A DNA stretch of 64,000 nt from a virus. The notes beneath the pieces are model-generated. The model saw only the letters and a list, made by a program, of their open reading frames with translations. It was not told where the DNA came from and searched no databases. Made by a program: the position numbers and the translations under genes. The stretch lies in IMG/VR virus record IMGVR_UViG_3300010218_000004, positions 1 through 64,000 of that record. One strand, written 5' to 3'. Every line of letters begins with the position of its first letter. Within the stretch, counting starts at the first letter, position 1. This document shows, piece by piece, positions 31,575-46,403 of this stretch.

Positions 31575-31612
31575 GACCGGGCCTGATCACACCACCTGCC
31601 GCAACAGGAGGA

Positions 31613-31813: not shown

Positions 31814-32073
31814 TGGGCGCCTTCGGCAACTTCGTTCGCAGTCTCGTCGGCGGTAACGACCACGAACTCGCCGCCACCCAGTACGCGGGCCGTGAGTCCG
31901 CCTCCGCGGCCGCCGCCCGCAAGACGGCCGAGCGGGAGCAGCGGGCGGCCGAGCGCCGCCGTCAGCAGCACCGTTCCAGCGGCATCCGTGAGGCGTCCCG
32001 GGCCAGCGAGCGGTGGGAGGCCGGCGACCGTCGCAGGCAGCGCACCGGCGCCAGCTGGAACCGCACCGCCTAA
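31813..32073 (+). CDS. Hypothetical highly charged protein
   Basis: TGATG coupling to the preceding gene. ORF track entry. Confidence 0.5.
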   Translation: MGAFGNFVRSLVGGNDHELAATQYAGRESASAAAARKTAEREQRAAERRRQQHRSSGIREASRASERWEAGDRRRQRTGASWNRTA

Positions 32074-32085
32074 CCCCCGCAGACC

Positions 32086-32121
32086 GGCAGCCCCCGCGAA
32101 CCTCCCCCCGCGGGGGCTGCC
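32086..32121 (+). terminator. 13-bp-stem hairpin without a U-tract
   Basis: GGCAGCCCCCGCG / CGCGGGGGCTGCC. Confidence 0.4.
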
Positions 32122-32143
32122 ACGCTTCCAGGAGGAACCTCCC

Positions 32144-33502: not shown

Positions 33503-34330
33503 CGTGACCGACCACAAGAACCCGACCACACCCGGCGCCCCCGACGACGATGAGCTGAGCATCCGGGCCATCCTCCGCCTGCGCGGCGTCAACTACGGTG
33601 ACGCGGCACCGCATCCGGACCCGATCGGCACCGCGGCCGCGGCCGCGGTCGCAACCATGCATCCGCATCCGGTCCCCGCGTCGAGTGCGCAACCGGATGC
33701 GGATGCGGATGCGCAGCCGTCCGCCGGCGACTGGTGGGATGCGCTCTACGCGGCCGCCGCAACCGACACCCACGACACGGATGCGCAGTCGAGTGCGCAA
33801 CCGGGTGCGGATGCGCAGCCGTCCGCTACGGAGGAGCCCGTCGAGAAGACGGATGCGGATGCGCAACCGGACCGCACCCGCACCCCCTGGTGGGCCCGCC
33901 GCACTCCGGTACCGGCCCCCGTCGACGACGACGCCGACGAGGACGACGACCCCACCGTCCCCATCGACGACGACGAGGACGACGCCGGCGACGAGGGGAG
34001 TGCGGATGCGCAGCCGCGCCGCACCCCGAGTGCGCATCCGAAGCGCACCCGCATCCGTGCCGGAGGTCGCAAGGGCGGCGGGAACCGCAATCGCGGCCGC
34101 GGACCCGCATCCGGCCCGAACGTGGCCGCCTACGCACCCGCACCCCGGATGTCGCTCCTCGACGCCGTCGCCAACGTCCCCCCGCGCATCCGCTGGTTGA
34201 TCCTCCACGGCAGCGCGGCCGGAGTCGGATACGCACTCGGCTGGGTGCGCTACTCCACCCGCACCGCCGCGTGGATCGCCGACCACGGCCTCCTCACCGT
34301 CAGCGGCATCTTCTGGTGCGGATGCGCAAT
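32929..34330. repeat. Dense field of (G/A)(A/G)TGCGCA(A/G)CC repeats
   Basis: About 18 TGCGCA hexamers in 1.4 kb by my count, spread across two genes. A 19-bp perfect palindrome GGATGCGGCCGCCGCATCC lies at 33165-33183. Confidence 0.8.
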
Positions 34331-34469
34331 CGGCGCCGAGGCCCTCCGCAACCGGTTCAGCACCTACCGCCTCCCCGTCCGCCTCCTCGCGGCCGTCCCT
34401 ATCGCGTCCATCGTCCTCGGCTCCCTCCTCTACGGAACCGGCTGGCAGAACCTGGAGCTTCCCCTGTGA
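33504..34469 (+). CDS. Membrane protein with an acidic DAQP-repeat N-terminal half
   Basis: GTG after an AAGGAGG RBS. The TM segments are C-terminal. Confidence 0.6.
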   Translation: MTDHKNPTTPGAPDDDELSIRAILRLRGVNYGDAAPHPDPIGTAAAAAVATMHPHPVPASSAQPDADADAQPSAGDWWDALYAAAATDTHDTDAQSSAQPGADAQPSATEEPVEKTDADAQPDRTRTPWWARRTPVPAPVDDDADEDDDPTVPIDDDEDDAGDEGSADAQPRRTPSAHPKRTRIRAGGRKGGGNRNRGRGPASGPNVAAYAPAPRMSLLDAVANVPPRIRWLILHGSAAGVGYALGWVRYSTRTAAWIADHGLLTVSGIFWCGCAIGAEALRNRFSTYRLPVRLLAAVPIASIVLGSLLYGTGWQNLELPL

Positions 34470-34870
34470 ACAGCATCTTCGGCAACCTCGGCACCGTGGG
34501 CCTGGCCCTCGCCCTCACCGTGCTGTTGTTCGTCGGCATCCCCGGCGGCGGCAAGCTCAAGCCGCTCGGCTGGTGGACCACGGTCTTCGTCTCGATGCTC
34601 GCGGGCAGCGCCTACAAGGCCGCGGGCGGAATGTTCAAAGTCGTCCCCGACTTCGTCGGCTGGCTGGTCTCCTTCGCTCAGGGCTTCTGGCGGGGTGCGA
34701 CCATGCCCAGCCTCGCCGTCTGCCTGCTCATCATCATGTTGTGGAAGAAGATGACGACGAAGCAGGTCGCGATCGTCTCCCTGATCTTCTTCTACGTCGC
34801 CGCCGGCGCCGGCGGTAACTGGTCGTACATCAGCGACGCCATCCAGAACGCCCGGATGGGCCTGCAATGA
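34466..34870 (+). CDS. Polytopic membrane protein
   Basis: GTGA coupling to the preceding gene. Tail of ORF 33734..34870. Confidence 0.6.
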   Translation: MNSIFGNLGTVGLALALTVLLFVGIPGGGKLKPLGWWTTVFVSMLAGSAYKAAGGMFKVVPDFVGWLVSFAQGFWRGATMPSLAVCLLIIMLWKKMTTKQVAIVSLIFFYVAAGAGGNWSYISDAIQNARMGLQ

Positions 34871-35586
34871 CGTACTTCTCCCTGCGGAAGCAGGACCCCG
34901 AGACCGAGCCGGACGAGGCGGCGGAGGACGTCGTCGAGGCGCAGGACGAGGGCGACGAGCAGGGAACGGAGGAGGCGCCGGCCGTGGAGACGGTCGGCGC
35001 CATCGCCGCGTTCCGTCAGGGCGTCGCCGGCTATTTCACCTGGTGGGCGGCCCGCATCGGCTACTGGGCGTACCTCATCCACTTCATCGCCGTGTGGGCC
35101 GTGTTCCACTACGCCAACCGCTGGGTGCCCGTCGGCGTCTGCGGCGCCCTGGCGTTCGGGATCTCCCTGTTCATGCCCCGTGAGTGGTTCGAAGGGGTCG
35201 CCGCCCGCCTGGACGCCCGCAGCGCCCGTTTCGGCGGCCGCCGGAAGGGTTCCGTCGAGGCGGAGACGGACGGCCCGCAGGAGGCCACGCAGGAGGCCCC
35301 CGGCGACCCCCTGGCGGCCCTCATGCGGAGCCTGATCGGAGAGGCCCCCGGGGTGCACCTCAAGACCCTCACCGAGGCCCTCGCGAAGGGGGCCGCGGAG
35401 GCCGGCAGTCCCGCCCCCTCCAAGGCCGATGTGGAGAGGGCCCTCGAGGCCCGGCAGATACCCCTCCGGGACTCCGTCCGGGACACCCGCAGGAAGGTCA
35501 ACCGGGGGGTGCACCGGGAGGACCTGGAGGCATACGAAAAGGGCCTCTCCCCGGCCCCAACCGCGCCCCCCGCTACAGGGGTGTAG
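34867..35586 (+). CDS. Membrane protein with a charged C-terminal domain
   Basis: ATGA coupling to the preceding gene. ORF track entry. Confidence 0.6.
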   Translation: MTYFSLRKQDPETEPDEAAEDVVEAQDEGDEQGTEEAPAVETVGAIAAFRQGVAGYFTWWAARIGYWAYLIHFIAVWAVFHYANRWVPVGVCGALAFGISLFMPREWFEGVAARLDARSARFGGRRKGSVEAETDGPQEATQEAPGDPLAALMRSLIGEAPGVHLKTLTEALAKGAAEAGSPAPSKADVERALEARQIPLRDSVRDTRRKVNRGVHREDLEAYEKGLSPAPTAPPATGV

Positions 35587-35662
35587 CAAACCATGTAGTA
35601 GCCCTCTGACCTGCGGTGTAGTAAACCTGCTACAGCCGTAGCGGCCGTGTAGTAGCGGTCCC
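35571..35662. repeat. Cluster of TGTAG/CTACA half-sites
   Basis: Contains GCTACAGGGGTGTAGC, ATGTAGTAGC, TGTAGTAAACCTGCTACA and GTGTAGTAGC. Confidence 0.7.
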
Positions 35663-35684
35663 CGCACCACCCACGGAGCACCCT

Positions 35685-35933
35685 GTGCCACACCTCTACG
35701 AGTGCCTTCAATGCCGCACCCAGTCGCCCGAAACGCGCGACACGTACGCGGCCGCCGAGGACGACCAGCAGCGCCATCGGGACGCCGCCCACGGGGGCGA
35801 CGCCCCGATGGACGGCGACCGCATCCGGAGGGTGCACGCGGACGCCCGCGGTGACGGCATCCTGCCCCGGCACACGTTCCTCGCGGTGCTCGTACTCCTC
35901 GCGCTGGTCCTCGCGAACTGCTGGGGGCGATGA
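35685..35933 (+). CDS. Hypothetical small protein (N-terminal CxxC, C-terminal TM segment)
   Basis: ORF track entry. Confidence 0.5.
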   Translation: MPHLYECLQCRTQSPETRDTYAAAEDDQQRHRDAAHGGDAPMDGDRIRRVHADARGDGILPRHTFLAVLVLLALVLANCWGR

Positions 35934-35950
35934 CCCCGGCGTCGGGTCGT

Positions 35951-36451
35951 CTACGAGCGGGGCGCCGACAGTGCGGGGAGCGGCGTCCTCGGCCGTGGCG
36001 GTCCGTCGTTGTGCCAGTCCTGCACCCATAGGCCGTCGCCGGCGAGGCGACGGCACATCTCGTTGTGGGCGTCCCGGAGGGCTGCGGTGCAGTAGCCGGA
36101 GCGGATGAGCCAGATCGAGCGCCCGCGGGTCTCCAGGCAGAACGCGTAACGCCCGGCCGGCATGCTGGAGGCGGGCACGATCTTCCAGACCGCTTCGGCG
36201 AGGTTGAGGCCCTCGGCGGGCTCCTGCATCCGCCCCTCATGCGTCCAGTGCTGACGCCAGAACTCCATGCCGACCATGTGGCGGGTGGCCCAGTTCAGGT
36301 CCCACACGGCCGGTTCGCGGATGTGGAGCGGGTGTACGTAGATGTCCGCCTGGCCGCCCGGGTGGTCTTCCACGTGGAGTACCTGACCCCGGGGGACGCG
36401 GCCATCGAAGTCGATGTGGTACACCGCGGATGGCGTCAGCTCGTCTCGCAC
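35951..36451 (-). CDS. Hypothetical protein
   Basis: GTG after an AGGAGG RBS, inside ORF 35951..36544. Confidence 0.55.
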   Translation of the reverse strand: MRDELTPSAVYHIDFDGRVPRGQVLHVEDHPGGQADIYVHPLHIREPAVWDLNWATRHMVGMEFWRQHWTHEGRMQEPAEGLNLAEAVWKIVPASSMPAGRYAFCLETRGRSIWLIRSGYCTAALRDAHNEMCRRLAGDGLWVQDWHNDGPPRPRTPLPALSAPRS

Positions 36452-36641
36452 GTGGCCTCCTGTCACTCCGGTAGGCGTCGCGCAGCAGCGGCGGACAGGC
36501 ATGCGTCGCCGTTCGGCTCCGCTCCGCAGACGGGCGCCCATCATGCACCGGCCGGTGACTATCAGCCAATACTCCTTGGACGTCCTGTAATCGCCGTATG
36601 TGAACTGTCCACGCTGGTAGGGCCGTTGACTTGAAAAAAAG

Positions 36642-37043
36642 TCAGGAGTCGCGGACCGGTCGGTTCGCCTCCATGTGGGCCCACACCTTCGCCTGGTCCT
36701 CCGGGCTCAACTCCTCCCAGCCGCGGATGAAGGCGCGTACCTGCCCGTCGTCGGTGTGGAGGGTGTCGATGCCGAAGAACTGTTGACTCGCGGCAATCTT
36801 CACCTCGTTCTCCGGCAGCTGGAGCGCGACGGCGAGGGCGCGGAGCCTTGCGGGGTTCGGCGGCATGATGCGCCGGCCCTTGAGGAGGTTGTCCAGGGTG
36901 CCGCGTTTCCAGAGCGGTGCCGCGCCCTCGCCCGGTGGGGTGGTGAGTTCCTCGAGTCGGCGCAGGCTGAGACCGAGTGCGGTCATGCGGGTGCGGACGA
37001 GGTCGGAGAGTTCGGTGCGCTGCCGCGGCTGGTCTGCCGCCAT
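36642..37043 (-). CDS. XRE-family HTH regulator (candidate immunity repressor)
   Basis: The HTH reads LSDLVRTRMTALGLSLRRLEELT...GTLDNLLKGRR. Alternative starts lie at 37079 and 37115. Three operators lie just upstream. Confidence 0.7.
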   Translation of the reverse strand: MAADQPRQRTELSDLVRTRMTALGLSLRRLEELTTPPGEGAAPLWKRGTLDNLLKGRRIMPPNPARLRALAVALQLPENEVKIAASQQFFGIDTLHTDDGQVRAFIRGWEELSPEDQAKVWAHMEANRPVRDS

Positions 37044-37144
37044 GACTGTCGTCCCCTCGTCCTCGTCGTGGGTGCTCATACCCGGTGGTACGTCTCGGTG
37101 ATCGTTGTTGCTCATTGTGCAATGCCCGGGCGTGCTCGCCTCAG

Positions 37145-37271
37145 TGTCCATGTTTCTGGACAGGCGGCAATAGCCGGGTGGTCTTTTCGGGGTGGGGGAG
37201 GGAGGTTGTCCAAAATCATGGACATGGGGGCCGTGGGGTGGCAGATTCGGGAGTGTCCATACCTTTGGACG
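37145..37271. promoter_or_regulatory. Three operators TGTCCA-N6-TGGAC(A/G)
   Basis: O1 at 37145-37162, O2 at 37207-37224 and O3 at 37254-37271. Confidence 0.75.
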
Positions 37272-37866
37272 CGGACGAGTGAGGGCGGGTTCTGCTCGGG
37301 TACTCGGTCTGCGGCCGCCCTGCCCCACGGGGCCACGGTCTCGGAGGACGTGGCGCGTGCACTCCTGTAGTGGGGGGTCGCCGGGCGGGGAGCCGGCCCG
37401 TAGAAATACTCGACGGTAACTCTCGCATTGGAGATCGTCGTGGATGGTCGGGCTTTTACCTATAACCGGCCGGGCGCCCCGGAAAAACCTGAACGGCGGT
37501 GCGTATGTGTATCCGGCACCTATAGAGAAGGTCACGGTTCCCTAATCGCCGCTTGGCCGTCCGCAAATGATCATCGCGGGTGACGCATATGCCCGGAACG
37601 CGGGATTCCGGTGACTCTGCGACGTTCGGTCAAACGCGGAGAGTTAGCGTCGAGATGCCCCTCCCGTCACCCTTGGCCAAAGCTGCCACGGGTTACCGCA
37701 GGTAGCAGTATCAGTGGTGCGTCTGCGTAGTCACCACGACGGCGACCGACGCGGTCCAGTCACGACCGCGCCGAGACCGGGCGGCTATTTCCCTGCAAAT
37801 CTCGCAGGCAAATGAGATCGGAAAGTAGTCCATGATGTGTGTCGTTCACGGTTCAACTCGGGGGGC

Positions 37867-38721
37867 ATGGAAGTGATACAGGGGGCGTTGAAGGAGGCGT
37901 TGCAGCACCTCCTCCAGAATCGCCGGGCGGAACTCGACCCGGCTGACTTCGGCATCACCCGCGGCGCCCGACAGGGGCGACGCGCAGCCGGCGGGGGTCT
38001 CTCCCAGACGCAGGTCGACGACCTCCTCGGCTTCGGCCGGGGCACGTACGAGCGCCTCGAAAACGGCCGCTACCGGGAGGCTCCCGAGCACGTCCTCAAG
38101 GCGGTGGGGGAGCTGTTCGACCTCAACGCACACGAGTGGGTATGGCTGTGGCGCATGACCTGGCGCCGCGACCCCCCGTACCCGCTCCGCCCGGAGACCG
38201 AGGAGGTCATCCCCGCCTCATGGCACCGGGTCCTCGACGGCCAGCCCCACCCGGCCTACCTCACCAACCACCGCTGGGAGGTCGTCGCCTACAACCAGCA
38301 CTTCCCGCGCATCTTCCCCGACCGTCGTGTCCCCCCGAACACGATGGAGTGGATGCTGCTGTCGCCCGACGCCCGCTGGGTTCTCGGCGACTGGAAAAAC
38401 GCCTGGGCGCCGTTCATCGCACCCCACGTCTGGGCCGCCCGGGCCGCGCACCCGAAGGACGAGTACCTCGCCGACTTCGAGCGGCGCATCCTCGCCGACG
38501 AGGAGGCCGGCCCGATCTACCAGGACTTCGGGCCGATCTTCGTTCACCCCGACGGGGCGTGCCGCCCCTTCAACCACCCCGAACTCGGGCCCGGCTGGAT
38601 CACCCTCCACACGTCGGTCCCCAGGTCGTCATCCAGCTTCACCACCATGCTCATGATCTTCGATCCGGGCCCGGAGCGTCCCCAAGTCCTCCCACCGCTC
38701 CACGCCCGCTACGGCGGCTGA
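37867..38721 (+). CDS. MmyB-like transcriptional regulator (XRE HTH plus a C-terminal ligand-binding-type domain)
   Basis: LQNRRAELDPADFGI...GLSQTQVDDLLGFGRGTYERLENGR is followed by a ~190-aa domain with ...AYLTNHRWEVVAYNQ..., as in MmyB-family proteins. Confidence 0.65.
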   Translation: MEVIQGALKEALQHLLQNRRAELDPADFGITRGARQGRRAAGGGLSQTQVDDLLGFGRGTYERLENGRYREAPEHVLKAVGELFDLNAHEWVWLWRMTWRRDPPYPLRPETEEVIPASWHRVLDGQPHPAYLTNHRWEVVAYNQHFPRIFPDRRVPPNTMEWMLLSPDARWVLGDWKNAWAPFIAPHVWAARAAHPKDEYLADFERRILADEEAGPIYQDFGPIFVHPDGACRPFNHPELGPGWITLHTSVPRSSSSFTTMLMIFDPGPERPQVLPPLHARYGG

Positions 38722-38812
38722 CACCCGCCCCATGACCGGGGTGGCGGGCAACACGCCCCCGATGCCCGCCACCCCGTCACCGCACCACCGTTCACCCATC
38801 CCGGAGGCACCC

Positions 38813-39868
38813 ATGCCCGCACACATCAGACGGCCCGTCATACGGCTCGCTGAACATCCCGTCACCACCGACGCCCTCCTCACGCACGTCCGCGACACGC
38901 ACTCCGCCGACCACCCCCGCATGCCGCTGTGGGAGCGCCTCATCCGCAACACCGGCGTCCGGGAGCGGCGTTGGGCCCGGCCGCTCCCGGAGGCGACCGT
39001 GCGTACCGGTGTCGCCCACCGCGCCAAGACGGCGTTCGGCGATGCTCTCGACCTCGCCGAAACCGCCGCCCGCGAGGCCCTCGACGTCGCCGGACTCGAC
39101 CCCGGCGACGTCGACGCCCTCGTCACCAGCCACACCACCAGCTGGACCGTGCCCGGCATCGACGTCCACCTCGTCGAACGCCTCGGCCTCCGCCCCACCC
39201 TGGCCCGCATGCCACTGTCCACCCTCGCCTGCGCCGGCGGCGCCACCGCCCTCATCCGCGCCCTCGACTACACCCGAGCCTGGCCCGGCGCCCGCGTCCT
39301 CGTCGTCGTCGCCGAAACCCTCTCGACCATCTACCACGACACGGAGACCACCCCGGAGTCGATGATCTACCGGGGCCTCTTCGGGGACAGTGCCGGAGCG
39401 TGCATCGTCACCGGCATCCACCCCGGCCACCCGGCCCCTGACGGCGGCGGGTTCCTCGTCGAACGCCCCTACGAACTGACGATGCCGGGCACCCGCGACC
39501 GCTACTGGGGCGCCATCGACGGCGACGGCCTCCACTTCCTCTCCACCCGCGCCGCCGCCCGCGCGGCCGCCGACGCCATCCCGTACATCGCCGACTGGCT
39601 CGGCGATCGCCCCGTCGAGTGGACGGTCGCGCACCCCGGCGGGCCCCGCATCATCGACGACTTCGTCAACGGCCTCGGCCTCGACGCGGAGAAGGACGGC
39701 CGGCACTCCCACGCCTCCCTCGCCGAGAACGGCAACCTCGGCGGCGTCGCCGTCCTCGACGTCCTCCGCCGCACCCACGACGACCCACCCGCACCCGGCG
39801 CCTCCGGTGTGCTCGCCGGGTTCGGCCCGGGCTTCAACGTCGCCGCCCTACACGGCTCCTGGACCTGA
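38813..39868 (+). CDS. Type III polyketide synthase (chalcone/stilbene synthase superfamily, RppA-like)
   Basis: Cys-His-Asn triad contexts are present: STLACAGGATAL, FGDSAGACIV, AHPGGPRIID, NGNLGGVAVLDVL and GFGPGFNV. ATG 38813 follows a GGAGG RBS (ATG 38732 is the alternative). Confidence 0.85.
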   Translation: MPAHIRRPVIRLAEHPVTTDALLTHVRDTHSADHPRMPLWERLIRNTGVRERRWARPLPEATVRTGVAHRAKTAFGDALDLAETAAREALDVAGLDPGDVDALVTSHTTSWTVPGIDVHLVERLGLRPTLARMPLSTLACAGGATALIRALDYTRAWPGARVLVVVAETLSTIYHDTETTPESMIYRGLFGDSAGACIVTGIHPGHPAPDGGGFLVERPYELTMPGTRDRYWGAIDGDGLHFLSTRAAARAAADAIPYIADWLGDRPVEWTVAHPGGPRIIDDFVNGLGLDAEKDGRHSHASLAENGNLGGVAVLDVLRRTHDDPPAPGASGVLAGFGPGFNVAALHGSWT

Positions 39869-39924
39869 CACTCACCAATCGCGCGACCCCCACCGCGCCC
39901 GGCCAAGCGAGGAACCCCCTACCG

Positions 39925-40524
39925 ATGACTCCCGATGCAGCACGTCCCCGCTCCGTCCGTGGTGGTACCGCCCGCCTCACGCTCGTCCCCAGCCCGGGGG
40001 AGGACACAGACACCAAGACGACGGACACCCAGCCGCCGGTCACGGACGCCGTCCGGCACCGCAGACTCAGCGTCGCCGGCAGCGCGACCGTCCGCGCCCT
40101 CATCGCCCTCGGCGCCCTCTCCGGCGCCGTCGGTATCCCGGTGAGCCGGGCGGACGCCGTCTACAAGTCGCACGAGGAACCGGACCGCGTCGAGGCCGAC
40201 CCCGGCAGCGCCTCCCTCGTCGACACCGCCCCGCCCGCCCGTGCGGCCGCCCACACGGTGACGGCGAGCGCAGGCTCATGGGCCCCGGCCCACACCACCA
40301 CGGTCGCCTACCGGACGACGCCGAAGGTCACCGCCGGCACGGGCCGTCACCGCAAGGCCCACTCATCCGGTGACCACAAGCCGGTGAGGGTCGGGAGCGG
40401 CCGCCACCGCCGGCCCGGACCGCCGACCGTGACCGCGCACCGGCCCGTGACCGCTGCCGTGGCGTCCCTCAAGGTCACCCTGTCCGGTCCCGGCGTACGC
40501 CTCGCCGCGAGCGCCCACCTGTGA
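39925..40524 (+). CDS. Putative secreted protein
   Basis: HRRLSVAGSATVRALIALGALSGAVGIPVSRA-DA resembles a Sec/Tat signal peptide. The remainder is basic and low-complexity. Confidence 0.5.
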   Translation: MTPDAARPRSVRGGTARLTLVPSPGEDTDTKTTDTQPPVTDAVRHRRLSVAGSATVRALIALGALSGAVGIPVSRADAVYKSHEEPDRVEADPGSASLVDTAPPARAAAHTVTASAGSWAPAHTTTVAYRTTPKVTAGTGRHRKAHSSGDHKPVRVGSGRHRRPGPPTVTAHRPVTAAVASLKVTLSGPGVRLAASAHL

Positions 40525-40634
40525 CGATTTGACTTCGTGGGCAAAATGAGCCCACTATTTGATCAGCTGGAACATCTGCCACCAAGGGCCGCCCATAGAG
40601 GCGGCCTTCGGCGTTTCTGGGGAGGCCCCACGCG

Positions 40635-40832
40635 ATGTCCTATCGCCCCGTTCTGATGGCCCCCTCCGACATCGCCCACCTCATCGGCCGCCCCGTCGGC
40701 ACCGTGAAGCGCTGGGCGAGCGAGGGACGGATCACCTCCCACGACGGCCGGTACGACTACCTCGAACTACGCGACGTCGCGACCGGCGCCCTCAAGCGGC
40801 CGCCGAAGAAGGCGCTCGTTCCCGCGGCCTGA
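40635..40832 (+). CDS. Excisionase-family HTH DNA-binding protein
   Basis: LMAPSDIAHLIGRPVGTVKRWASEGRI is an HTH_17/Xis-type motif. Confidence 0.6.
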   Translation: MSYRPVLMAPSDIAHLIGRPVGTVKRWASEGRITSHDGRYDYLELRDVATGALKRPPKKALVPAA

Positions 40833-40849
40833 CCCGCCGCCACATAGAC

Positions 40850-40889
40850 CGGCCCCGCGCGGATCAATGGATTCCGGCGGGGCCGTTTG
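40850..40889 (+). terminator. Terminator hairpin
   Basis: CGGCCCCGC / GCGGGGCCG followed by TTTGA. Confidence 0.55.
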
Positions 40890-40961
40890 ACGTCGGCCGC
40901 CACGCATTGAGGGGTGCGCGGCGGCCGACACCCTCACCCCTCACCCCCCTCCGGAGTCCCC

Positions 40962-41153
40962 ATGCAGACGCTGCCCCCCGGCTACCGCCCGCGCGCACCC
41001 CGCTCCGAGCGGCGTGCCGTGTCCCGACGCACCGCCCGTGACCAGACCCGGGCCATGCACACGTTCCTCGGCACCACGCCCCGGTACGAGCCCGCCCGGG
41101 ACACCTCCTGCGCGGTCCATTACCGCCGGAACCCCTGCAAGCGCTGCGCGTAG
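40962..41153 (+). CDS. Hypothetical small basic protein (63 aa)
   Basis: Internal ATG after a GGAG RBS, with very high GC3. Confidence 0.5.
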   Translation: MQTLPPGYRPRAPRSERRAVSRRTARDQTRAMHTFLGTTPRYEPARDTSCAVHYRRNPCKRCA

Positions 41154-41211
41154 AGCGCCCCCGCCGCCCCACAGAAACCCGACACCCACCCCGCCACGGA
41201 AGGCGCTCACC

Positions 41212-41589
41212 ATGTCTGTCCTCGACGAACTCCACGACATCATCACCGACCTCGAGGGCGAGGGTCACCAACTCGCCGGCCGGTTCCGCGACTTCTACGA
41301 CCGCGTCAAGCACGAGGTCGGTGACCTCCTCGACGGCGGCAAGAGCGAACTCGAACAGTTCCTGGGCGGCCTCGTCAGCACCCTCCGCCCCGAGCTGGAC
41401 AAGCTCAAGGCGGACATCGTCGCCGAGGTCGTCGCCGAACTCGGCAAGGTGACCGGCGCCGTACAGGACGTCGTCCACGAGGTCCAGGTCGTCGTCGGCG
41501 GCAAGGCCGTCAGCGAGAGCACCGTCGCCGAGGTCGCGGGCCGGGTCGCCGAGCAGGCCGGCCGCGACGGCCGCGCCGCCCGCCGCTGA
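41212..41589 (+). CDS. Hypothetical helical or coiled-coil protein
   Basis: Tail of ORF 41014..41589. Confidence 0.6.
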   Translation: MSVLDELHDIITDLEGEGHQLAGRFRDFYDRVKHEVGDLLDGGKSELEQFLGGLVSTLRPELDKLKADIVAEVVAELGKVTGAVQDVVHEVQVVVGGKAVSESTVAEVAGRVAEQAGRDGRAARR

Positions 41590-41660
41590 CGAACCGCCAC
41601 CCCGGCCCCGGGCCCGGTCGAGCCGCCTGCACCGGCTCCCGCCCACGGGCCAACCCCACC

Positions 41661-41698
41661 GCGGGGCCCCGGCCGACGACTCCCGGCCGGGGCCCCGC
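41661..41698 (+). terminator. 14-bp-stem hairpin
   Basis: GCGGGGCCCCGGCC / GGCCGGGGCCCCGC. Confidence 0.5.
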
Positions 41699-41725
41699 GC
41701 CCCCCACCTCGCACGAGGAGACACC

Positions 41726-41833
41726 GTGCTGCGCTTCCATCGCGCCGTGTACGTCGTCGACGGCGTCCGCAAGCAGACCACCTGGTGGCAGTTGGGCGAC
41801 CGCATCCTCCGGCACCGCACCCGGGCCGTCTGA
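41726..41833 (+). CDS. Hypothetical micro-protein (35 aa)
   Basis: Translated by hand. GTG six nt after a GAGGAG RBS. Confidence 0.35.
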   Translation: MLRFHRAVYVVDGVRKQTTWWQLGDRILRHRTRAV

Positions 41834-41872
41834 CCCGCCCCACGTCCCCCCGACCCTCACGGGAGACCCCGC

Positions 41873-43435
41873 ATGCCCGCCGTCTACATCGACACCCGTG
41901 ACGTCCCCCTCGACGAGCTGACGCCGTTCCCCGGGAACGCCAAGCGGGGCCGCCCGGACGAGATCCTCGTCAGCCTCCGCCGTAACGGCCAATACCGCGG
42001 CCTCGTCGTCCGGCAGACCGGCGGCGCGCTCATCGTCCTCGCCGGCAACCACACGTTGCAGGCCCTCAAGGCCCACGGGCCGGGCCGCTGCGAGTACGCC
42101 GACCACGAGGACGCGCCGTGTGGCATGTGCGCGGACGGCACGTGGGACGGCACCACCGCCCGCTGCGAGATCATCGACTGCGACGACCAGGACGCGCGCC
42201 GTATCAACCTCGCCGACAACCGGCTGGCCGAGCTCGGCGGGTACGACAATGATGACCTCGCCGAACTCCTCTCCTACATGGACGGGGACTACGCCGGTAC
42301 CGGTTACAGCGAGGCCGACGTCATGCGGCTGATCACGCCGCCGGACGTCGACGACCTCCTCGACGGCGACGGCGAGGACGCGGAGCCTGCGGAGGCGCCG
42401 TCGCTCGCGGAACGGTTCCTCATCCCGCCGTTCGACGTCCTCGACGCCCGACAGGGATGGTGGCGCACCCGGAAGCGGCAGTGGCTGTCCCTCGGCATCG
42501 TGTCGGAGGTCGGCCGCGACGGGAACCTCGCCTTCGCCGACGTGTCGATGGCGGACCCGGACTACTACCGGAAGAAGGAAGAGGCGCAGCAGCAGGCAGG
42601 CCGCGCCCTGACGAACGCCGAGTTCGAGGCCGACTACTACACGCCGCTCGATACGTCATGGAGTGGCGGAACGTCGGTGTTCGACCCCGTCATGTGCGAA
42701 CTGGCCTACCGCTGGTTCTCCCCGCAGGGCGGCACGGTCCTCGACCCGTTCGCGGGCGGTTCCGTCCGCGGCCTCGTCGCCGGCATCCTCGGCCGCCCCT
42801 ACCGTGGAAACGACCTGCGGCCGGAGCAGGTGGAGTCGAACCGGGAGCAGCGCGACGCGTTCGCCCGGCGCGGCCTCCTCGCCGCCGACCCGGAATGGAC
42901 GATCGGGGACTCCGCGGACTGGGTCACCACCCTGGAGCCGGAGAGCGCCGACATGGTGTTCACCTGCCCGCCCTACTACGACCTCGAGGAGTATTCCTCG
43001 AACCCGGCCGACCTGTCGGCCATGTCATACGACGACTTCGACGCCGCGTACGCCCGGATCATCGCCGGTGCCGCCCGCGCGTTGAAGGCGAACCGGTGGG
43101 CAGTGTTCGTCGTCGGTGACGCCCGCGACAGCAAGGGTGCGCTGCACGACCTGCGCGGCTCCACGGTCCGCGCCGCGACGGCTGCGGGACTCACCTACGC
43201 CTCCGGTGGCGTCCTCGTCACCCCGGTCGGGTCCACGGCCATCATGGCCGGGAAGGTGTTCACCGCGACCCGAGGTCTCGGCCGCGTCCACCAGGACGTG
43301 CTCGTGTTCTGCAAGGGCAGCCGCTCCCTCGCCGCGCAGGCATGCGGCGACGTCGACGTCCACCTCCCCGACGGCGCCGCCGACGCGTTCGCCGATGCTG
43401 AGGACGACGACGAGAACCTTCCCGAAGCGGCTTGA
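41873..43435 (+). CDS. ParB-like nuclease domain fused to a DNA methyltransferase
   Basis: The N-terminus (LTPFPGNAKRG...VLAGNHTLQA) is ParB/Srx-like. The AdoMet motif VLDPFAGGS is followed about 75 aa later by the catalytic motif FTCPPYY. Confidence 0.8.
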   Translation: MPAVYIDTRDVPLDELTPFPGNAKRGRPDEILVSLRRNGQYRGLVVRQTGGALIVLAGNHTLQALKAHGPGRCEYADHEDAPCGMCADGTWDGTTARCEIIDCDDQDARRINLADNRLAELGGYDNDDLAELLSYMDGDYAGTGYSEADVMRLITPPDVDDLLDGDGEDAEPAEAPSLAERFLIPPFDVLDARQGWWRTRKRQWLSLGIVSEVGRDGNLAFADVSMADPDYYRKKEEAQQQAGRALTNAEFEADYYTPLDTSWSGGTSVFDPVMCELAYRWFSPQGGTVLDPFAGGSVRGLVAGILGRPYRGNDLRPEQVESNREQRDAFARRGLLAADPEWTIGDSADWVTTLEPESADMVFTCPPYYDLEEYSSNPADLSAMSYDDFDAAYARIIAGAARALKANRWAVFVVGDARDSKGALHDLRGSTVRAATAAGLTYASGGVLVTPVGSTAIMAGKVFTATRGLGRVHQDVLVFCKGSRSLAAQACGDVDVHLPDGAADAFADAEDDDENLPEAA

Positions 43436-43460
43436 AGAAGCCCCCACACCTTCCGCATCA

Positions 43461-43476
43461 TGTAGCTACACGCAAG
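43461..43476. promoter_or_regulatory. Single TGTAGCTACA operator copy (with the CGCAAG flank) upstream of the late genes
   Basis: TGTAGCTACACGCAAG is identical to the -35-proximal half of cassettes P1-P9. Confidence 0.6.
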
Positions 43477-43497
43477 CTACTGACCTGGGAGAACGTG

Positions 43498-43758
43498 ATG
43501 GGACTTGCCCGCGACCTGACCATGGGAAGCCGTCGCCCCCGCCGGAACGGGATCGCCGCAAACCCCGACTACGCCGCCCTGCGTCGCCTCACCCAGGCTG
43601 CCGCCCCGGACACCGACCTCATGCGCAGCATCCTCGAACGCGTCGGGGCCAGCCCGGCCCGGATGCGTTTCAAGGAGGGCGCCATCTACATCGAGGCGTG
43701 CAAGCGGTACCGGGAGATCACCGGCGAGGACTTCGGGCCCCGCCTCGGCACCTACTGA
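43498..43758 (+). CDS. Hypothetical protein
   Basis: ATG after a GGGAGA RBS, inside ORF 43432..43758. Confidence 0.55.
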   Translation: MGLARDLTMGSRRPRRNGIAANPDYAALRRLTQAAAPDTDLMRSILERVGASPARMRFKEGAIYIEACKRYREITGEDFGPRLGTY

Positions 43759-43775
43759 CCCACCTCACTGCATCG

Positions 43776-43818
43776 CGGCTGCGGCCCGCACCCCGTCACC
43801 GGGTGCGGGCCGCAGCCG
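43776..43818 (+). terminator. 18-bp perfect-stem hairpin
   Basis: CGGCTGCGGCCCGCACCC-CGTCACC-GGGTGCGGGCCGCAGCCG. Confidence 0.6.
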
Positions 43819-43843
43819 TGTTCCCCTCACGAGGAGGCCGGCC

Positions 43844-44170
43844 GTGTCCGACGAGCCTCACGACGACCCGACGGCCGGGCAGGCCCTCGCCCTGGCCCTC
43901 GCCGGCGTCGACTGGCACACCATCGCCGACCGCCTGAACTACGCCGACCCCGCCGACGCCCTCGACGCCGCTATGGCGGTCGCCGAGACGCAGTACGACG
44001 GCCCCCCGGCCGACCCGCAGCGCATCCTCGAGGTACTCCGCCTCAACCGGTTGCAGGCCGCCGTGTGGAAGGACGCCATGAAGGGCGACCTCAACGCCGT
44101 CTCCACCGTCCTGAACATCCAGGACCGGCGCGTGCGCACCCTGCGCCTCAACCAGAGGAGCCGGGATTGA
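43844..44170 (+). CDS. Putative small DNA-binding or terminase accessory protein
   Basis: ILEVLRLNRLQAAVWKDAMKGDLNAVSTVLNIQDRRVRTLRL is typical of actinophage small-terminase-type proteins. It sits immediately upstream of the packaging genes. Confidence 0.45.
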   Translation: MSDEPHDDPTAGQALALALAGVDWHTIADRLNYADPADALDAAMAVAETQYDGPPADPQRILEVLRLNRLQAAVWKDAMKGDLNAVSTVLNIQDRRVRTLRLNQRSRD

Positions 44171-44754
44171 GCCTGCGTCCCGAGCACGCCGAGGACGGCA
44201 AGCCGAAGTGCGGCGCGCAGAAACGGCAGGGCGCCAAGGGGGAGACGTGCACGTTCGTCGCCGGCTGGGGCACCGACCACGTCGGCGTCGGCCACTGCCG
44301 CCTCCACGGTGGTAACACCCGCACGCAGCGGACGGCCGCCCGGGCGGCGCAGGCCGAGAGCGAGGCCCGGCAGGTACTCGCGAACCTCAACGTCCCCGCC
44401 GTCGACGACCCGTTCGCCGCGCTCTCCCGCCTCGCCGGGCAAGTCCTCGCCTGGCAGGAGGCCATCAGCGGCATCGTCAACAACCTCGGCGACCGCGTCC
44501 GCTACGAGGGCGCCTCCGGGTCCGAGCAGCTCCGCGCCGAGATCGCCCTGTACGAGCGGGCGATGGACCGCACCGGCCACGTCCTCGGCATGATCGCCAA
44601 GCTGAACATTGAGGACCGCATGGCGCGGGTGACCGAACGCCAGGCCGACGCCCTCGTATCCGCGCTTGAGGCGGCACTCGCCGCAGCCGGCGTGACCGGC
44701 ACCGCCGCCGACGACGCACGGCAGGCCGCGGCCCGCCACCTCCGCGCCGTGTAA
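44167..44754 (+). CDS. Putative terminase small subunit (N-terminal zinc-ribbon type)
   Basis: TTG start overlapping the upstream stop. KCGAQKRQGAKGETCTFVAGWGTDHVGVGHCRLHGG matches a motif I recall from actinophage small terminases. It precedes the large terminase. Confidence 0.5.
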   Translation: MSLRPEHAEDGKPKCGAQKRQGAKGETCTFVAGWGTDHVGVGHCRLHGGNTRTQRTAARAAQAESEARQVLANLNVPAVDDPFAALSRLAGQVLAWQEAISGIVNNLGDRVRYEGASGSEQLRAEIALYERAMDRTGHVLGMIAKLNIEDRMARVTERQADALVSALEAALAAAGVTGTAADDARQAAARHLRAV

Positions 44755-44775
44755 CCCCCTCATGGAGGCGCCGAC

Positions 44776-46403
44776 GTGTCCAGCGACATGGACGCGCTCG
44801 CGCTCGCCGCCGACCGTCTGGAAGGCCGCAGCGCGGCCGCCGACCGCTACCCCACCCCCCACGACCTCGCCAAGGCCCTCGATCCCAAGGTGGTTCGGAC
44901 CCCGGCCCTGGCCCTCCTCGATCAGAACCTCATCGACGTCGCCGAGGGCCGCTGTAAGCGCCTCATCTGGACCATGCCTCCCCAGGAGGGAAAAGCCAGA
45001 GGGTCAGCCGCACGTTCCCGGCGTGGCTGCTGGCCCGCGACCCCGACAAGCGCATCGCGATTGCCTCCTACGAGTTGGGCACCGCCCGACGGTGGGGCCG
45101 CGCGATCCGTAACGACATCAAGGCGAACCGGGACAAGTTCGGGCTGGCCATCCGCACCGACACCTCGTCGGCGCAGGAGTGGCAGATCCAGGACCACGCC
45201 GGCGGCGTGTACTCGGTCGGTGTGCAGGGCGCCCTCACCGGCCGCCCCGTCGACGTCCTCATCATCGACGACCCGATCAAGGACCGTGCGCAGGCCGAGT
45301 CGCTGGTGTTCCGCGAGCGCGTCTGGGACTTCTGGACCGACACCGCCCGCACGCGATTCGGCCCGGACACCTGCGTGATCGTCGTCCTCACCCGCTGGCA
45401 TGAGGACGACCTCGCCGGCCGGCTCCTCGCGCAGGACGTGCGCGGCGAGTGGCGGCACATCAACATCCCCGCGGAGGCCGACCACAAGCCGGAGGAGGGG
45501 CAGACCGACCCGCTCGGTCGGGCGCCCGGCGAGTTCCTCAAGTCGGCGCGTGGCCGCACCCCGCAGGACTGGCAGGACACCCGGCACGACGTCGGCTCCC
45601 GCACGTGGACGAGCCTCTACCAGGGCCGTCCGTCCCCGGAGTCCGGCGACGTGTGGAAACGCCCCTGGTGGCGCCGCTATCAGACGCCGCTGTGGTCGCA
45701 GCATCCCGAGCACCCCGACGCGTACACGGTCGAGGAGTTCGACCAGCTCATCATGTCGTGGGACATGGCTTTCAAGGACACGAAGTCGTCCGACTATGTG
45801 GTGGGTCAGGTGTGGGGGCGGCGCGGCGCGAACGTCTACCTCCTCGACCACATCCGTAAGCGCCTGTCGTTCACGGACACCCTCGCCGCGTTCCAGGCGA
45901 TGGTGAGGCGGTGGCCGCAGGCGACGGGGAAGCTCGTCGAGGACAAGGCGAACGGCACGGCCGTCATCTCCACCCTCAAATCGAAGATCCCCGGCATCAT
46001 CGCGGTCACCCCGACCGAGTCGAAGTACGCCCGCGCGAACGCCGTTGCCCCCGTCATCGAGGCCGGCAACGCGTTCCTCCCGGAGAAGGGCATCGCCCTG
46101 TTCGACCCGGAGGAACTGATCGAAGAGGCCGCGTCGTTCCCGAACGCCACGCATGACGACCAGGTCGACGCCACCAGCCAGGCCCTGGCCTACCTCCTCC
46201 TCGACCAGACCGGCGCGCACGCGTGGATCAACCACTACCGCGCCAAGGCCGCGGCCGCCGCCGCGGACCCCGACGACACCACGGACGGCGAGGAAGGCGT
46301 GCCGGACAAACCGGCCGACCCGACCCCGCCGGCCGTACCCGTCGAGGACGCGGCCGCCGCCCGGAAACGCCTACGCGACTCCCAAGTCCGCAACCAACGA
46401 TGA
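44776..46403 (+). CDS. terL: Terminase large subunit, reading frame broken at 44988-44994 (needs a -1 shift or a 1-nt correction)
   Basis: Frame 1 gives ...RLIWTMPPQEGK. Frame 0 continues SQRVSRTFPAWLLARDPDKRIAIASYE...DVLIIDDPIKD...LTRWHEDDL (Walker-B-like and nuclease regions). The frame-0 stop at 44955-44957 prevents an upstream start in that frame. Confidence 0.85.
44777..44794. promoter_or_regulatory. Fourth TGTCCA-N6-TGGACG site, overlapping the terL start codon
   Basis: TGTCCAGCGACATGGACG has the same half-sites and spacing as O3. Confidence 0.45.

What the first reader, a model, noticed from the sequence alone, without database searches (positions are those of the whole stretch)
37867..40524. 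Phage-borne type III polyketide synthase with an adjacent MmyB-like regulator and a secreted protein
A three-gene rightward unit lies between the immunity region and the late genes. It has longer, less GC-rich intergenic DNA than the rest of the element. The genes are an MmyB-family regulator (37867..38721), a full-length type III PKS with an intact Cys-His-Asn triad context (38813..39868) and a signal-peptide protein (39925..40524). Type III PKSs of the RppA type make small aromatic polyketides in actinomycetes, and MmyB-like proteins are ligand-responsive regulators of specialised metabolism. I know of no characterised phage or prophage that carries such a biosynthetic cassette, so it may be a lysogenic-conversion or signalling function. 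The product cannot be inferred from the sequence.
Basis: partly seen in the sequence, partly recalled or inferred. Interest (0 to 1): 0.8.

Follow-up and report, generated by a model that had tools for sequence, protein, structure and literature searches.

The report
Phage-plasmid copy of violapyrone (vioAB) cassette
A large Streptomyces phage (probably a phage-plasmid) carries a regulator plus a small polyketide synthase that are relatives of the already characterised two-gene "vio" cluster for alkyl-pyrone antibiotics, so the genes are real, but neither the enzyme type nor its presence on a phage is new.

Summary
37867-38721 encodes an HTH + MmyB-like ligand-binding regulator. 38813-39868 encodes a full-length type III PKS with Cys140/His274/Asn308. 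39925-40524 encodes a small membrane-anchored orphan protein. The unit lies between a repressor/operator region and the packaging genes of a phage element; an identical PKS sits on a 97.8-kb contig.

The interpretation needs correcting. The PKS is not RppA-type, and the cassette is not unprecedented. The regulator and PKS are homologues (43% and 53% identity to near-identical proxies) of vioB-vioA. That two-gene cluster, on an ~85-kb Streptomyces plasmid, was shown experimentally to make violapyrones (3-methyl-4-hydroxy-6-alkyl-alpha-pyrones), with VioB as repressor. The plasmids carrying close homologues (pCQ3, pCQ4, pZL12, pSLE1) are pZL12-type plasmid-phages, and 26 of 34 in PLSDB carry the PKS.

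The window belongs to a second, unrelated lineage of ~97-99 kb. There the pair plus the third gene is syntenic in every close member that could be checked. The pair also occurs in many chromosomal contexts.

Three points appear new:
- the link between the vio cluster and phage-plasmids;
- this second carrier lineage;
- a lineage-invariant 27-bp palindrome over the likely -35 of the regulator's promoter.

What the pyrone does for the phage is unknown.

The parts
37787..37836 (+). Candidate operator and promoter of the cassette. It comprises a 27-bp palindrome ATTTCCCTGCAAATCTCGCAGGCAAAT (37787-37813), whose right arm supplies a -35-like GGCAAA/GCAAAT, then a 17-nt spacer, then a -10-like CATGAT (37831-37836). 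It lies 30-80 nt upstream of the regulator's ATG.
   Evidence: The motif is nearly invariant in all 7 window-like loci, within DNA that is otherwise about 50% identical. It occurs once in the window, with 0 expected by chance. It is the only part of the 787-nt gap that blastn finds conserved in relatives. Coordinates were checked. Binding by the regulator is inferred, not shown.
37867..38721 (+). MmyB-like transcription regulator and VioB homologue. The XRE-type HTH is at about 37972-38139 and the MLTR ligand-binding domain at about 38212-38670.
   Evidence: Pfam HTH_31 1.1e-7 and MLTR_LBD 3.9e-15. It is 43% identical over its full length to pCQ4.19c, which is 95% identical to VioB. pCQ4.19c and pZL12.99 have the same two domains. 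A homologue lies directly upstream of the PKS in 93 of about 108 related loci.
38738..38775 (+). GC-rich stem-loop between regulator and PKS (13-bp arms GGGGTGGCGGGCA / TGCCCGCCACCCC, 12-nt loop, no U-tract). It may be a partial terminator, an attenuator or an RNA-stability element.
   Evidence: The region folds at -40.2 kcal/mol, z = -3.0 against shuffles. Comparable hairpins with different sequences appear at the same place in 4 of 6 related loci; L004 and L085 lack one. Function not tested.
38813..39868 (+). Type III polyketide synthase of 351 aa, in the VioA/Cpz6-like alkyl-alpha-pyrone synthase clade. Catalytic residues are Cys140 (39230-39232), His274 (39632-39634) and Asn308 (39734-39736).
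   Evidence: It is 52.8% identical to pCQ3.110c, which is 95% identical to VioA. It keeps I173, L189, Y231 and S244, which correspond to VioA I174, L190, Y229 and S242.
39925..40524 (+). Fast-evolving orphan protein of 199 aa. It has a conserved N-terminal RR..HLxLV segment, a single hydrophobic helix at about residues 55-77 followed by AxA, and two G(R/K)HR(K/R) motifs. It is specific to this phage lineage.
   Evidence: Alignment with 9 relatives and hydropathy analysis. No hit in Pfam, NCBIfam, PHROGs or PADLOC. Only 3 database relatives were found. It always follows the PKS in window-like loci and is absent elsewhere.
40537..40555 (+). Terminator-like hairpin (GTGGGC-AAAATGA-GCCCAC, then a T-rich tail) 13 nt after the stop codon of the third gene. 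It is the likely 3' end of the unit.
   Evidence: The scan as a whole found no more sites than shuffled sequence, so this is weak evidence. The position fits a three-gene transcript.

Best explanation
The unit is a phage-carried copy of the vioB-vioA type of two-gene alkyl-alpha-pyrone cluster, with one lineage-specific membrane protein attached.

Proposed mechanism, with the status of each step:
1. The MmyB-like regulator binds as a dimer to the 27-bp palindrome over the -35 of its own promoter and keeps the regulator-PKS-third gene transcript low. This is inferred from the operator's position and from VioB being a repressor.
2. A lipid-like ligand bound by the MLTR domain relieves repression. 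This is inferred from the domain family only.
3. The PKS takes beta-ketoacyl or acyl thioesters from host fatty-acid metabolism and condenses them with methylmalonyl- or ethylmalonyl-CoA on Cys140. It then lactonises the product to 3-alkyl-4-hydroxy-6-alkyl-2-pyrones of the violapyrone/presulficidin type. The chemistry is shown for VioA and Cpz6. It is inferred here from 52-53% identity, conserved residues and phylogenetic bracketing.
4. The element is a roughly 98-kb temperate Streptomyces phage, probably maintained as a plasmid. The cassette is accessory cargo (lysogenic conversion) that gives the carrier strain a mildly antibacterial lipophilic pyrone.

Homology to the characterised pair:
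- The PKS is 52.8% identical to pCQ3.110c, which is 95% identical to VioA. All four VioA residues probed by mutagenesis are kept, including Y229 (severely impaired when mutated) and S242 (essential).
- The regulator is 43% identical to pCQ4.19c, which is 95% identical to VioB, and has the same domain pair.
- Deleting vioB raised violapyrone B eightfold, and the genes flanking vioAB were dispensable (PMC4924298).

Phylogenetic bracketing:
- The VioA-like protein and the SN-1061M type III PKS (presumed LpmD, the Cpz6 orthologue) are only 53% identical to each other, yet VioA and Cpz6 make the same compound.
- Their common ancestor in the NJ tree includes the window's clade and excludes Gcs.

Coupling of the pair:
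- The regulator lies directly upstream in 93 of about 108 loci, across very different genomic contexts.

Phage context:
- Terminase, portal-MuF and tape-measure genes lie downstream.
- The same gene order occurs in 9 or more relatives on contigs of 97-99 kb, one of them labelled a plasmid.
- pZL12-type plasmid-phages carry the PKS in 26 of 34 PLSDB records.

Operator:
-.
Against: - No experiment exists on this lineage. At about 50% identity, starter and extender choice could differ.
- The window's clade is a separate, 100%-bootstrap branch. Deep nodes of the tree are weak: family monophyly has 74/100 support.
- The promoter-like CAGGG-N14-26-TAnnTT element found between regulator and PKS in many pZL12-like and chromosomal loci is absent from this lineage. 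Here a hairpin sits in that position, so regulation may differ.
- Binding of the regulator to the palindrome is untested.
- Extrachromosomal maintenance cannot be seen in the window. One relative lies inside a 365-kb contig (L006).
- The identification of P0065 as the Cpz6 orthologue rests on its name and source strain only.
Confidence: 0.7

Rival explanations
1. The pair is a small-molecule communication circuit of the phage-plasmid. The PKS makes a diffusible pyrone, and the MmyB-like protein senses it (or a host lipid) and feeds into the lysis-lysogeny, transfer or germination decision. This would be analogous in logic to arbitrium or to pyrone signalling in Photorhabdus.
For: - A synthase and a ligand-binding regulator are inherited together in 93 of about 108 loci.
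- Two unrelated phage-plasmid lineages retain the pair: 26 of 34 pZL12-type plasmids, and every close window-like locus that could be checked.
- In the window the unit sits next to the repressor/operator region and just upstream of the late genes.
- Related pyrones, the germicidins made by Gcs, are autoregulators of spore germination (my own knowledge; Gcs is the nearest structural relative).
Against: - The palindrome occurs only once in the window, so there is no sign that the regulator controls other phage operons.
- The same pair sits in ordinary chromosomal neighbourhoods with no phage genes.
- Deleting vioB had a simple derepression phenotype.
- No data link the pyrones to the regulator's ligand pocket.
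Confidence: 0.12
2. It is an RppA/THN-synthase type pigment gene, making tetrahydroxynaphthalene and flaviolin-type products.
For: THNS (1u0m) is the top sequence and structure hit in the PDB. The pZL12 GenBank note says 'similar to RppA'.
Against: - Identity to THNS is only 32-34%, the same as to Gcs.
- The position of THNS Tyr224 is Gly233 here.
- The cavity positions that are Cys168 and Cys171 in THNS are Leu and Ile here, resembling the ALSTTY motif of Gcs.
- No P450 or MomA partner gene is nearby.
- Characterised relatives at 52-53% identity make alkyl-pyrones.
Confidence: 0.04
3. The segment is host chromosomal DNA next to a prophage end, or a recent chance insertion with no relation to the phage.
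For: Homologous pairs exist in chromosomes. The unit is flanked by atypically AT-rich gaps.
Against: - Element genes lie on both sides within the window.
- The order DUF2637 ... regulator-PKS-third gene-BldC-like-ParB/methylase-terminase is conserved in relatives whose proteins are only about 70-80% identical. The cassette has therefore been inherited with the lineage.
- The window-like PKSs form a 100%-bootstrap clade.
Confidence: 0.03
4. It is a chemical anti-phage or superinfection-exclusion function: the pyrone or the membrane protein blocks competing phages.
For: - Prophages often carry defence cargo at such positions.
- The third gene encodes a membrane protein specific to the lineage.
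- Violapyrones showed activity against influenza virus in cell culture (PMC5898002), which is weakly relevant at best.
Against: - No PADLOC match for any of the ten genes tested.
- The 2023 survey found no clusters for known anti-phage molecules in actinobacterial prophages.
- No data connect alkyl-pyrones to phage inhibition.
Confidence: 0.08

Closest known systems
vioA-vioB violapyrone cluster of Streptomyces somaliensis SCSIO ZH66 (PMC4924298, PMC5898002)
   Same: It is a two-gene unit: a roughly 350-aa type III PKS next to a roughly 275-aa HTH + MmyB-like regulator, on a large plasmid. The residues I174, L190, Y229 and S242 are conserved here. The regulator acts negatively and the flanking genes are dispensable.
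   Different: Identity is only about 53% (PKS) and 43% (regulator), measured against the 95%-identical proxies pCQ3.110c and pCQ4.19c. The window's proteins form a separate clade on an unrelated phage backbone. The candidate operator lies upstream of the regulator rather than between the two genes. A third, lineage-specific gene is attached. The vio papers describe a plasmid and never mention a phage.
pZL12.99-pZL12.100 of Streptomyces plasmid-phage pZL12 (GQ919031), and the equivalents on pSLE1, pCQ3 and pCQ4
   Same: These are phage-plasmids with a full tail and head gene set that carry the same regulator-then-PKS pair in the same orientation.
   Different: The backbone differs: terminase identity is 27%, and only about 10 of about 93 window proteins have any match. 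The elements are 85-94 kb rather than about 98 kb. The cassette there is not next to the packaging genes. The PKS is 49% identical and the regulator 39%.
Cpz6 / LpmD presulficidin synthase of the caprazamycin and liposidomycin clusters
   Same: It belongs to the same PKS clade (the presumed LpmD is 53% identical) and makes the same pyrone scaffold as VioA.
   Different: It is embedded in a large nucleoside-antibiotic cluster, where the pyrone serves as a sulfate carrier. It has no adjacent MmyB-like regulator; loci of that sub-clade lack one.
Germicidin synthase Gcs (SCO7221, PDB 3v7i)
   Same: It has the nearest solved structure (TM 0.92). It shares the ALSTxY and GN(L/R)GG motifs and is an alkyl-pyrone-forming enzyme that uses fatty-acid-derived starters.
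   Different: It is 32-36% identical and about 40 residues longer, it is chromosomal, and it has no paired MmyB-like regulator.
RppA / THNS (SCO1206, PDB 1u0m)
   Same: It shares the type III PKS fold and triad and is the best PDB sequence hit.
   Different: The Tyr224 equivalent is Gly. There is no P450 partner, the clade is different, and the expected chemistry differs (pentaketide naphthalene rather than triketide pyrone).
Biosynthetic clusters carried by phages, such as sublancin on SPbeta (Dragos et al. 2021, seen only in the reference list of PMC10023795)
   Same: The concept is the same: a temperate phage carries a small biosynthetic cluster for an antibacterial product.
   Different: That case is a ribosomal peptide in Bacillus. 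This is a polyketide in a Streptomyces phage-plasmid, and no competitive role has been shown.

Membership tests
Type III polyketide synthase (chalcone/stilbene synthase superfamily) | Thiolase-type fold of a stand-alone protein of about 350-400 aa | tested here: met
   The AlphaFold model has pLDDT 91.5 and pTM 0.92. Foldseek gives TM 0.91 to THNS and 0.92 to Gcs, and all of the top 50 hits are type III PKSs.
Type III polyketide synthase (chalcone/stilbene synthase superfamily) | Cys-His-Asn catalytic triad | tested here: met
   Cys140, His274 and Asn308 align with the triad of THNS and are invariant in 28 relatives.
Type III polyketide synthase (chalcone/stilbene synthase superfamily) | Pfam Chal_sti_synt_N and Chal_sti_synt_C above the gathering score | tested here: inconclusive
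   The N domain scores 75.8 bits against a cut-off of 27. The C domain scores 26.5 bits, just under its cut-off of 27. The precomputed Pfam set for the identical protein P0001 lists both domains.
RppA / THN synthase | Tyr224 (THNS numbering), which selects malonyl-CoA as starter | tested here: not met
   The aligned residue is Gly233, in the sequence RYWGAID. This position is nearly invariant Gly across the family.
RppA / THN synthase | Adjacent P450 or MomA-type tailoring gene, and clade membership | tested here: not met
   No such gene lies in the unit or its flanks. The NJ tree places THNS outside the family.
vioAB-type alkyl-alpha-pyrone cluster | PKS in the VioA/Cpz6 clade with the VioA functional residues I174, L190, Y229 and S242 | tested here: met
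   The window has I173, L189, Y231 and S244. It is 52-53% identical to the VioA proxy and to the presumed LpmD. The common ancestor of those two includes the window's clade. Deep branch support is modest.
vioAB-type alkyl-alpha-pyrone cluster | Adjacent VioB-type regulator (XRE HTH + MmyB-like ligand-binding domain) | tested here: met
   43% full-length identity to pCQ4.19c, with the same two Pfam domains.
vioAB-type alkyl-alpha-pyrone cluster | The product is a 3-methyl-4-hydroxy-6-alkyl-2-pyrone, and the regulator represses the PKS | not testable with these tools
   This needs heterologous expression with LC-MS, and a regulator deletion.
MmyB-like transcription regulators | N-terminal XRE-type HTH plus C-terminal MLTR_LBD | tested here: met
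   HTH_31 1.1e-7 and MLTR_LBD 3.9e-15, both above the curated cut-offs. No solved structure matched by sequence.
pZL12-type Streptomyces plasmid-phages | Shared backbone (terminase, structural and replication genes) | tested here: not met
   The terminase is only 27% identical, and only about 10 window proteins have any match in pZL12. No nucleotide similarity was found to any record in the phage collection.
Phage-plasmid (a temperate phage maintained extrachromosomally) | A complete virion gene set plus autonomous maintenance | tested here: inconclusive
   Virion and packaging genes are present. Relatives sit on stand-alone contigs of 95-99 kb, one labelled a plasmid. No partition or replication gene and no integrase was identified in the 64-kb window. 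One relative lies in a 365-kb contig.

The most novel reading that the evidence does not exclude
The MmyB-like sensor and the pyrone synthase form a self-contained chemical signalling module that Streptomyces phage-plasmids have captured at least twice. They would use it to sense lysogen density or host lipid state and to tune induction, plasmid transfer or spore germination. This would be a polyketide-based counterpart of peptide (arbitrium) or host quorum-sensing control of lysogeny.
Probability: 0.12. Interest if true: 0.8.

Novelty: new member of a known kind. Interest (0 to 1): 0.4.

Why it matters
Two bodies of literature describe the same genes without meeting. Natural-product papers treat vioAB as a plasmid-borne violapyrone cluster. 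Phage and plasmid papers note an orphan 'type III PKS' on pZL12-like plasmid-phages. Joining them shows that a defined, experimentally tractable metabolite class is carried by most members of one Streptomyces phage-plasmid family (26 of 34). A second, unrelated family carries it too.

This turns 'what does a biosynthetic gene do for a phage?' into a testable question, with known compounds, known mutants and a candidate operator. It does not reveal a new enzyme class or a new kind of system.

Tried and rejected
- **Nucleotide search:** megablast of 36000-42000 against the phage collection found nothing. Megablast of 30000-50000 against plasmids gave only short DUF2637 and PKS matches.
- **Related loci from a single protein:** The search for related loci with one PKS sequence found nothing in either collection. 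An alignment query was needed.
- **Source contig:** the exact look-up of the identical protein P0001 was not on record, so the source contig could not be read.
- **RNA and signal scans:** Rfam and tRNA scans of the window were empty. The sigma-70 promoter scan found nothing, and the terminator scan was no better than shuffles.
- **ORF3 and neighbours:** PADLOC, PHROGs, NCBIfam and Pfam gave nothing for the third gene or for most neighbours.
- **Literature:**
  - The pZL12 paper (PMC2897331) is not held.
  - No paper holds both 'MmyB' and 'type III polyketide synthase'.
  - The search for pCQ3/pCQ4 returned no paper on these plasmids other than PMC4924298.
  - SCO7671 was considered as a chromosomal counterpart and rejected, because it is the srsA-type operon.
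- **Operator comparison:** I tried to equate the window-lineage palindrome with the CAGGG...TAnnTT element found between regulator and PKS in other lineages. The half-sites look alike (CCTG/CAGG, CAAT) but the spacing differs, and a strict pattern is lineage-specific. The relation is left open.
- **Hairpin:** consensus folding of the regulator-PKS hairpin across relatives gave only 5 weak pairs. Two loci lack the hairpin, so it is not claimed as a conserved RNA.
Full report
**1. What is at the coordinates**

A codon-bias gene call on this 71.5% GC window places three consecutive + strand genes at 37867-38721, 38732/38813-39868 and 39925-40524.

- **Regulator (37867-38721).** It carries an XRE-type HTH (HTH_31, 1.1e-7) and the MmyB-like ligand-binding domain (MLTR_LBD, 3.9e-15).
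- **PKS (38813-39868).**
  - It matches Chal_sti_synt_N (4.5e-21) and FAE1_CUT1_RppA, and scores just under the cut-off for Chal_sti_synt_C.
  - By sequence, its best solved relatives are THNS/RppA 1u0m (1.3e-50) and germicidin synthase 3v7i (7e-47).
  - An AlphaFold model built on 28 relatives has pLDDT 91.5. It superposes on THNS and Gcs with TM 0.91-0.92.
  - Cys140, His274 and Asn308 are invariant.
  - The real start is the ATG at 38813. It has GGAGG upstream, and a 100%-identical 351-aa protein, P0001, is in the database, on a 97,787-bp JGI contig. The longer ORF from 38732 would begin inside a hairpin.
- **Third gene (39925-40524).** It is conserved in relatives but has no family match.
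  - Its hydrophobic helix sits at residues ~55-77, behind a conserved N-terminal segment.
  - An AxA motif and two G(R/K)HR(K/R) motifs follow.
  - It is a small membrane-anchored or atypically secreted protein, not a classic signal-peptide protein.
- **Flanks.** The 787-nt gap before the unit is the longest in the window and is AT-enriched (62.4% GC against a median of 72%). The 110 nt after the unit are also AT-enriched. The gaps inside the unit are short and GC-rich.

**2. The setting is a phage, not host DNA**

- Downstream lie a ParB-N/DNA-methylase fusion, a large terminase, a portal-MuF fusion, a head-tail adaptor, tail proteins and a tape-measure protein that runs off the window.
- Upstream lie a repressor-like HTH gene (36642-37079, minus strand) and three TGTCCA-N-TGGACA palindromes. 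Further left are DUF2637, ThyX, DpdA, SSB and RusA genes.
- No tRNA or Rfam family was found.
- Proteins about 70% identical to the PKS sit on contigs of 95-99 kb. One of these is a Streptomyces graminifolii record labelled a plasmid.
- In nine or more such loci, from genomes and from IMG/VR, the gene order is the same: regulator, PKS, third gene, BldC-like gene, small gene, ParB/methylase, terminase.

**3. The cassette is not unprecedented on phages**

- A protein search of the phage collection hit Streptomyces plasmid-phage pZL12 (GQ919031). There, pZL12.99 ('transcriptional regulator') and pZL12.100 ('type III polyketide synthase') are adjacent and in the same order, at 39% and 49% identity to the window's proteins.
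- Otherwise the two elements share almost nothing. The terminases are 27% identical and about ten proteins match.
- pSLE1 of S. leeuwenhoekii was reported to carry the same PKS (PMC4487206).
- A 2023 survey remarked that type III PKSs were found only in prophages on plasmids (PMC10023795).
- In PLSDB, a pZL12-type terminase occurs in 34 Streptomyces or Kitasatospora plasmids of 85-94 kb. These include pCQ3, pCQ4 and pSLE1, and 26 of the 34 carry the PKS.

**4. The pair has been characterised, under another name**

  - vioA encodes a 350-aa type III PKS that is 95% identical to pCQ3.110c.
  - vioB encodes a 272-aa 'XRE-family' regulator that is 95% identical to pCQ4.19c.
  - vioA is required for violapyrone B.
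  - Deleting vioB raised violapyrone B eightfold.
  - Deleting the flanking ORFs had no effect.
- PMC5898002 shows that VioA alone gives fourteen violapyrones in heterologous hosts.
  - It places VioA next to Cpz6, and with DpyA and Gcs.
  - It proposes beta-keto acyl-CoA or acyl-ACP starters with methylmalonyl- or ethylmalonyl-CoA extenders.
  - Y229A was severely impaired and S242A was inactive.
- Neither paper mentions a phage. Yet pCQ3 and pCQ4 carry the pZL12-type terminase.
- I retrieved pCQ3.110c and pCQ4.19c as proxies.
  - The window PKS is 52.8% identical to pCQ3.110c and keeps I173, L189, Y231 and S244.
  - The window regulator is 43% identical to pCQ4.19c over its full length.
  - pCQ4.19c, pZL12.99 and a chromosomal homologue all have HTH + MLTR_LBD. 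VioB is therefore an MmyB-like regulator, a point I did not find in the searchable literature.

**5. Family structure**

- An alignment-based scan found 497 relatives among GTDB species representatives and 30 IMG/VR contigs.
- In the roughly 108 loci retrieved, a regulator homologue lies directly upstream of the PKS in 93. No other neighbour is conserved.
- Contexts include the two phage-plasmid lineages. They also include several unrelated chromosomal neighbourhoods with GFO/IDH oxidoreductase, TetR, MFS, GNAT, SDR and other ordinary genes.
- A sub-clade without the regulator contains the type III PKS of the liposidomycin producer SN-1061M, presumably LpmD, the Cpz6 orthologue.
- In NJ trees:
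  - the whole family separates from THNS and Gcs (74/100 bootstrap);
  - the window-like PKSs form one clade (100/100);
  - the pZL12-like PKSs fall in several clades mixed with chromosomal ones, which implies repeated exchange.
- The VioA proxy and the presumed LpmD are only 53% identical to each other, no closer than either is to the window protein. Even so, VioA and Cpz6 make the same compound. Their common ancestor in the tree includes the window's clade and excludes Gcs. This is the basis for predicting an alkyl-alpha-pyrone product here.
- The RppA reading fails. The THNS Tyr224 position is Gly233, the THNS cavity cysteines are Leu and Ile here, and no P450 gene is near.

**6. Regulation**

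- *Candidate operator.*
  - Upstream of the regulator, all seven window-like loci share a nearly invariant ATTTnCCTGCAAATCTCGCAGGCAAAT palindrome, within DNA that is otherwise about 50% identical. A CATGAT box follows 17 nt later.
  - In the window the palindrome is at 37787-37813 and the box at 37831-37836, about 30 nt before the ATG.
  - The motif occurs once in the window, with none expected by chance. It is the only conserved piece of the 787-nt gap.
  - An operator over the -35 fits a repressor, as VioB is. Binding is inferred, not shown.
- *Hairpin between regulator and PKS.* The window has a 13-bp GC stem-loop at 38738-38775 (-40 kcal/mol, z = -3). Four of six relatives have a different hairpin at the same place and two have none.
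- *Other lineages.* A promoter-like CAGGG-N14-26-TAnnTT element sits between regulator and PKS in 19 of 32 pZL12-like loci and 17 of 53 chromosomal loci, against 0.2% of shuffles. It is absent from this lineage.
- *Likely transcript.* In this lineage the three genes are therefore probably one autoregulated transcript that ends at the terminator-like hairpin 40537-40555 (weak evidence).

**7. What it probably does, and what is unknown**

- *Shown elsewhere:* VioA-type enzymes make lipophilic 4-hydroxy-2-pyrones with modest activity against Gram-positive bacteria, and VioB represses them.
- *Inferred here:* the same chemistry and control logic, carried as accessory cargo by a temperate phage-plasmid.
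- *Unknown:* the benefit to the element.
  - The pair is kept in most pZL12-type plasmids and in every close window-like locus that could be checked. That argues for selection.
  - More distant terminase relatives (L128, L132) were not among the PKS hits.
  - A signalling role for the synthase-sensor pair is not excluded. Nothing supports it beyond the pair's architecture and position.
  - No defence-system model matches any of the ten genes tested.

**8. Verdict**

The claim of novelty is not: this is a diverged member of the vioAB alkyl-pyrone cassette, already annotated on plasmid-phages and already characterised chemically. The new elements are modest:
- a second carrier lineage with its own extra gene;
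- a candidate operator;
- recognition of VioB as MmyB-like;
- the explicit link between the vio cluster and phage-plasmids.

Noticed in passing
window 37144-37270, with the gene at 36642-37079 (minus strand): Three copies of an operator-like palindrome TGTCCA-N6-8-TGGACA lie at 37144-37162, 37207-37224 and 37253-37270. They sit just upstream of a 145-aa HTH_31 protein with a weak PHROG 'transcriptional repressor' match. This looks like the immunity switch of the element.
   Followed up: partly
window 9051-10531: A Vut_1/YhhQ-type transporter gene (9051-9623; the family that salvages queuosine precursors) overlaps the start of a DpdA homologue (9620-10531, Pfam 3.8e-56). This suggests 7-deazaguanine modification of the phage DNA using salvaged preQ0.
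   Followed up: no
window 49508-52690: A 1060-aa protein combines a portal domain (residues 50-483), a NUDIX/MutT-like stretch (~585-645) and a MuF-type minor head domain (~930-1059) in one reading frame.
   Followed up: no
window 41873-43435: A ParB-N-like domain is fused to an N6/N4 DNA methyltransferase. It lies directly upstream of the packaging genes and is conserved at that position in all window-like loci.
   Followed up: partly
window 40635-40832: A 65-aa protein has a weak BldC-family (MerR-like small HTH) match. It is conserved at 68-85% identity in all window-like loci, directly after the cassette.
   Followed up: no
PLSDB plasmids NC_013449.1 (pCQ3), NZ_CP032230.1, NZ_CP108353.1, NZ_CP134214.1, NZ_CP109524.1: In several pZL12-type plasmid-phages the terminase match is split in two pieces around an annotated HNH or LAGLIDADG homing endonuclease. 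This points to an intein or mobile intron in the terminase gene.
   Followed up: no
L003 33690-33938 and many other loci (REG-PKS intergenic regions): pZL12-like and chromosomal vioAB loci share a promoter-like element between regulator and PKS. It has a near-palindromic CCCTG-A(N)-CAGGG(G)CAAT, then TA(C/G)(G/T)TT about 18 nt downstream, then CACCCCCAC. It is probably the vioA promoter and operator, and I did not find it described in the papers read.
   Followed up: partly
L012, L015, L021, L022 (genome loci): A sub-clade of the PKS family lacks the MmyB-like regulator and shares other neighbours (gene clusters 122, 123 and 170). It includes the PKS of the liposidomycin producer, so these loci are probably caprazamycin/liposidomycin-type clusters.
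   Followed up: no
window 15937-16722 and 7550-8131: A ThyX thymidylate synthase and an SSB are present. The SSB is 59% identical to pZL12.1c and is one of the few proteins shared with pZL12.
   Followed up: no
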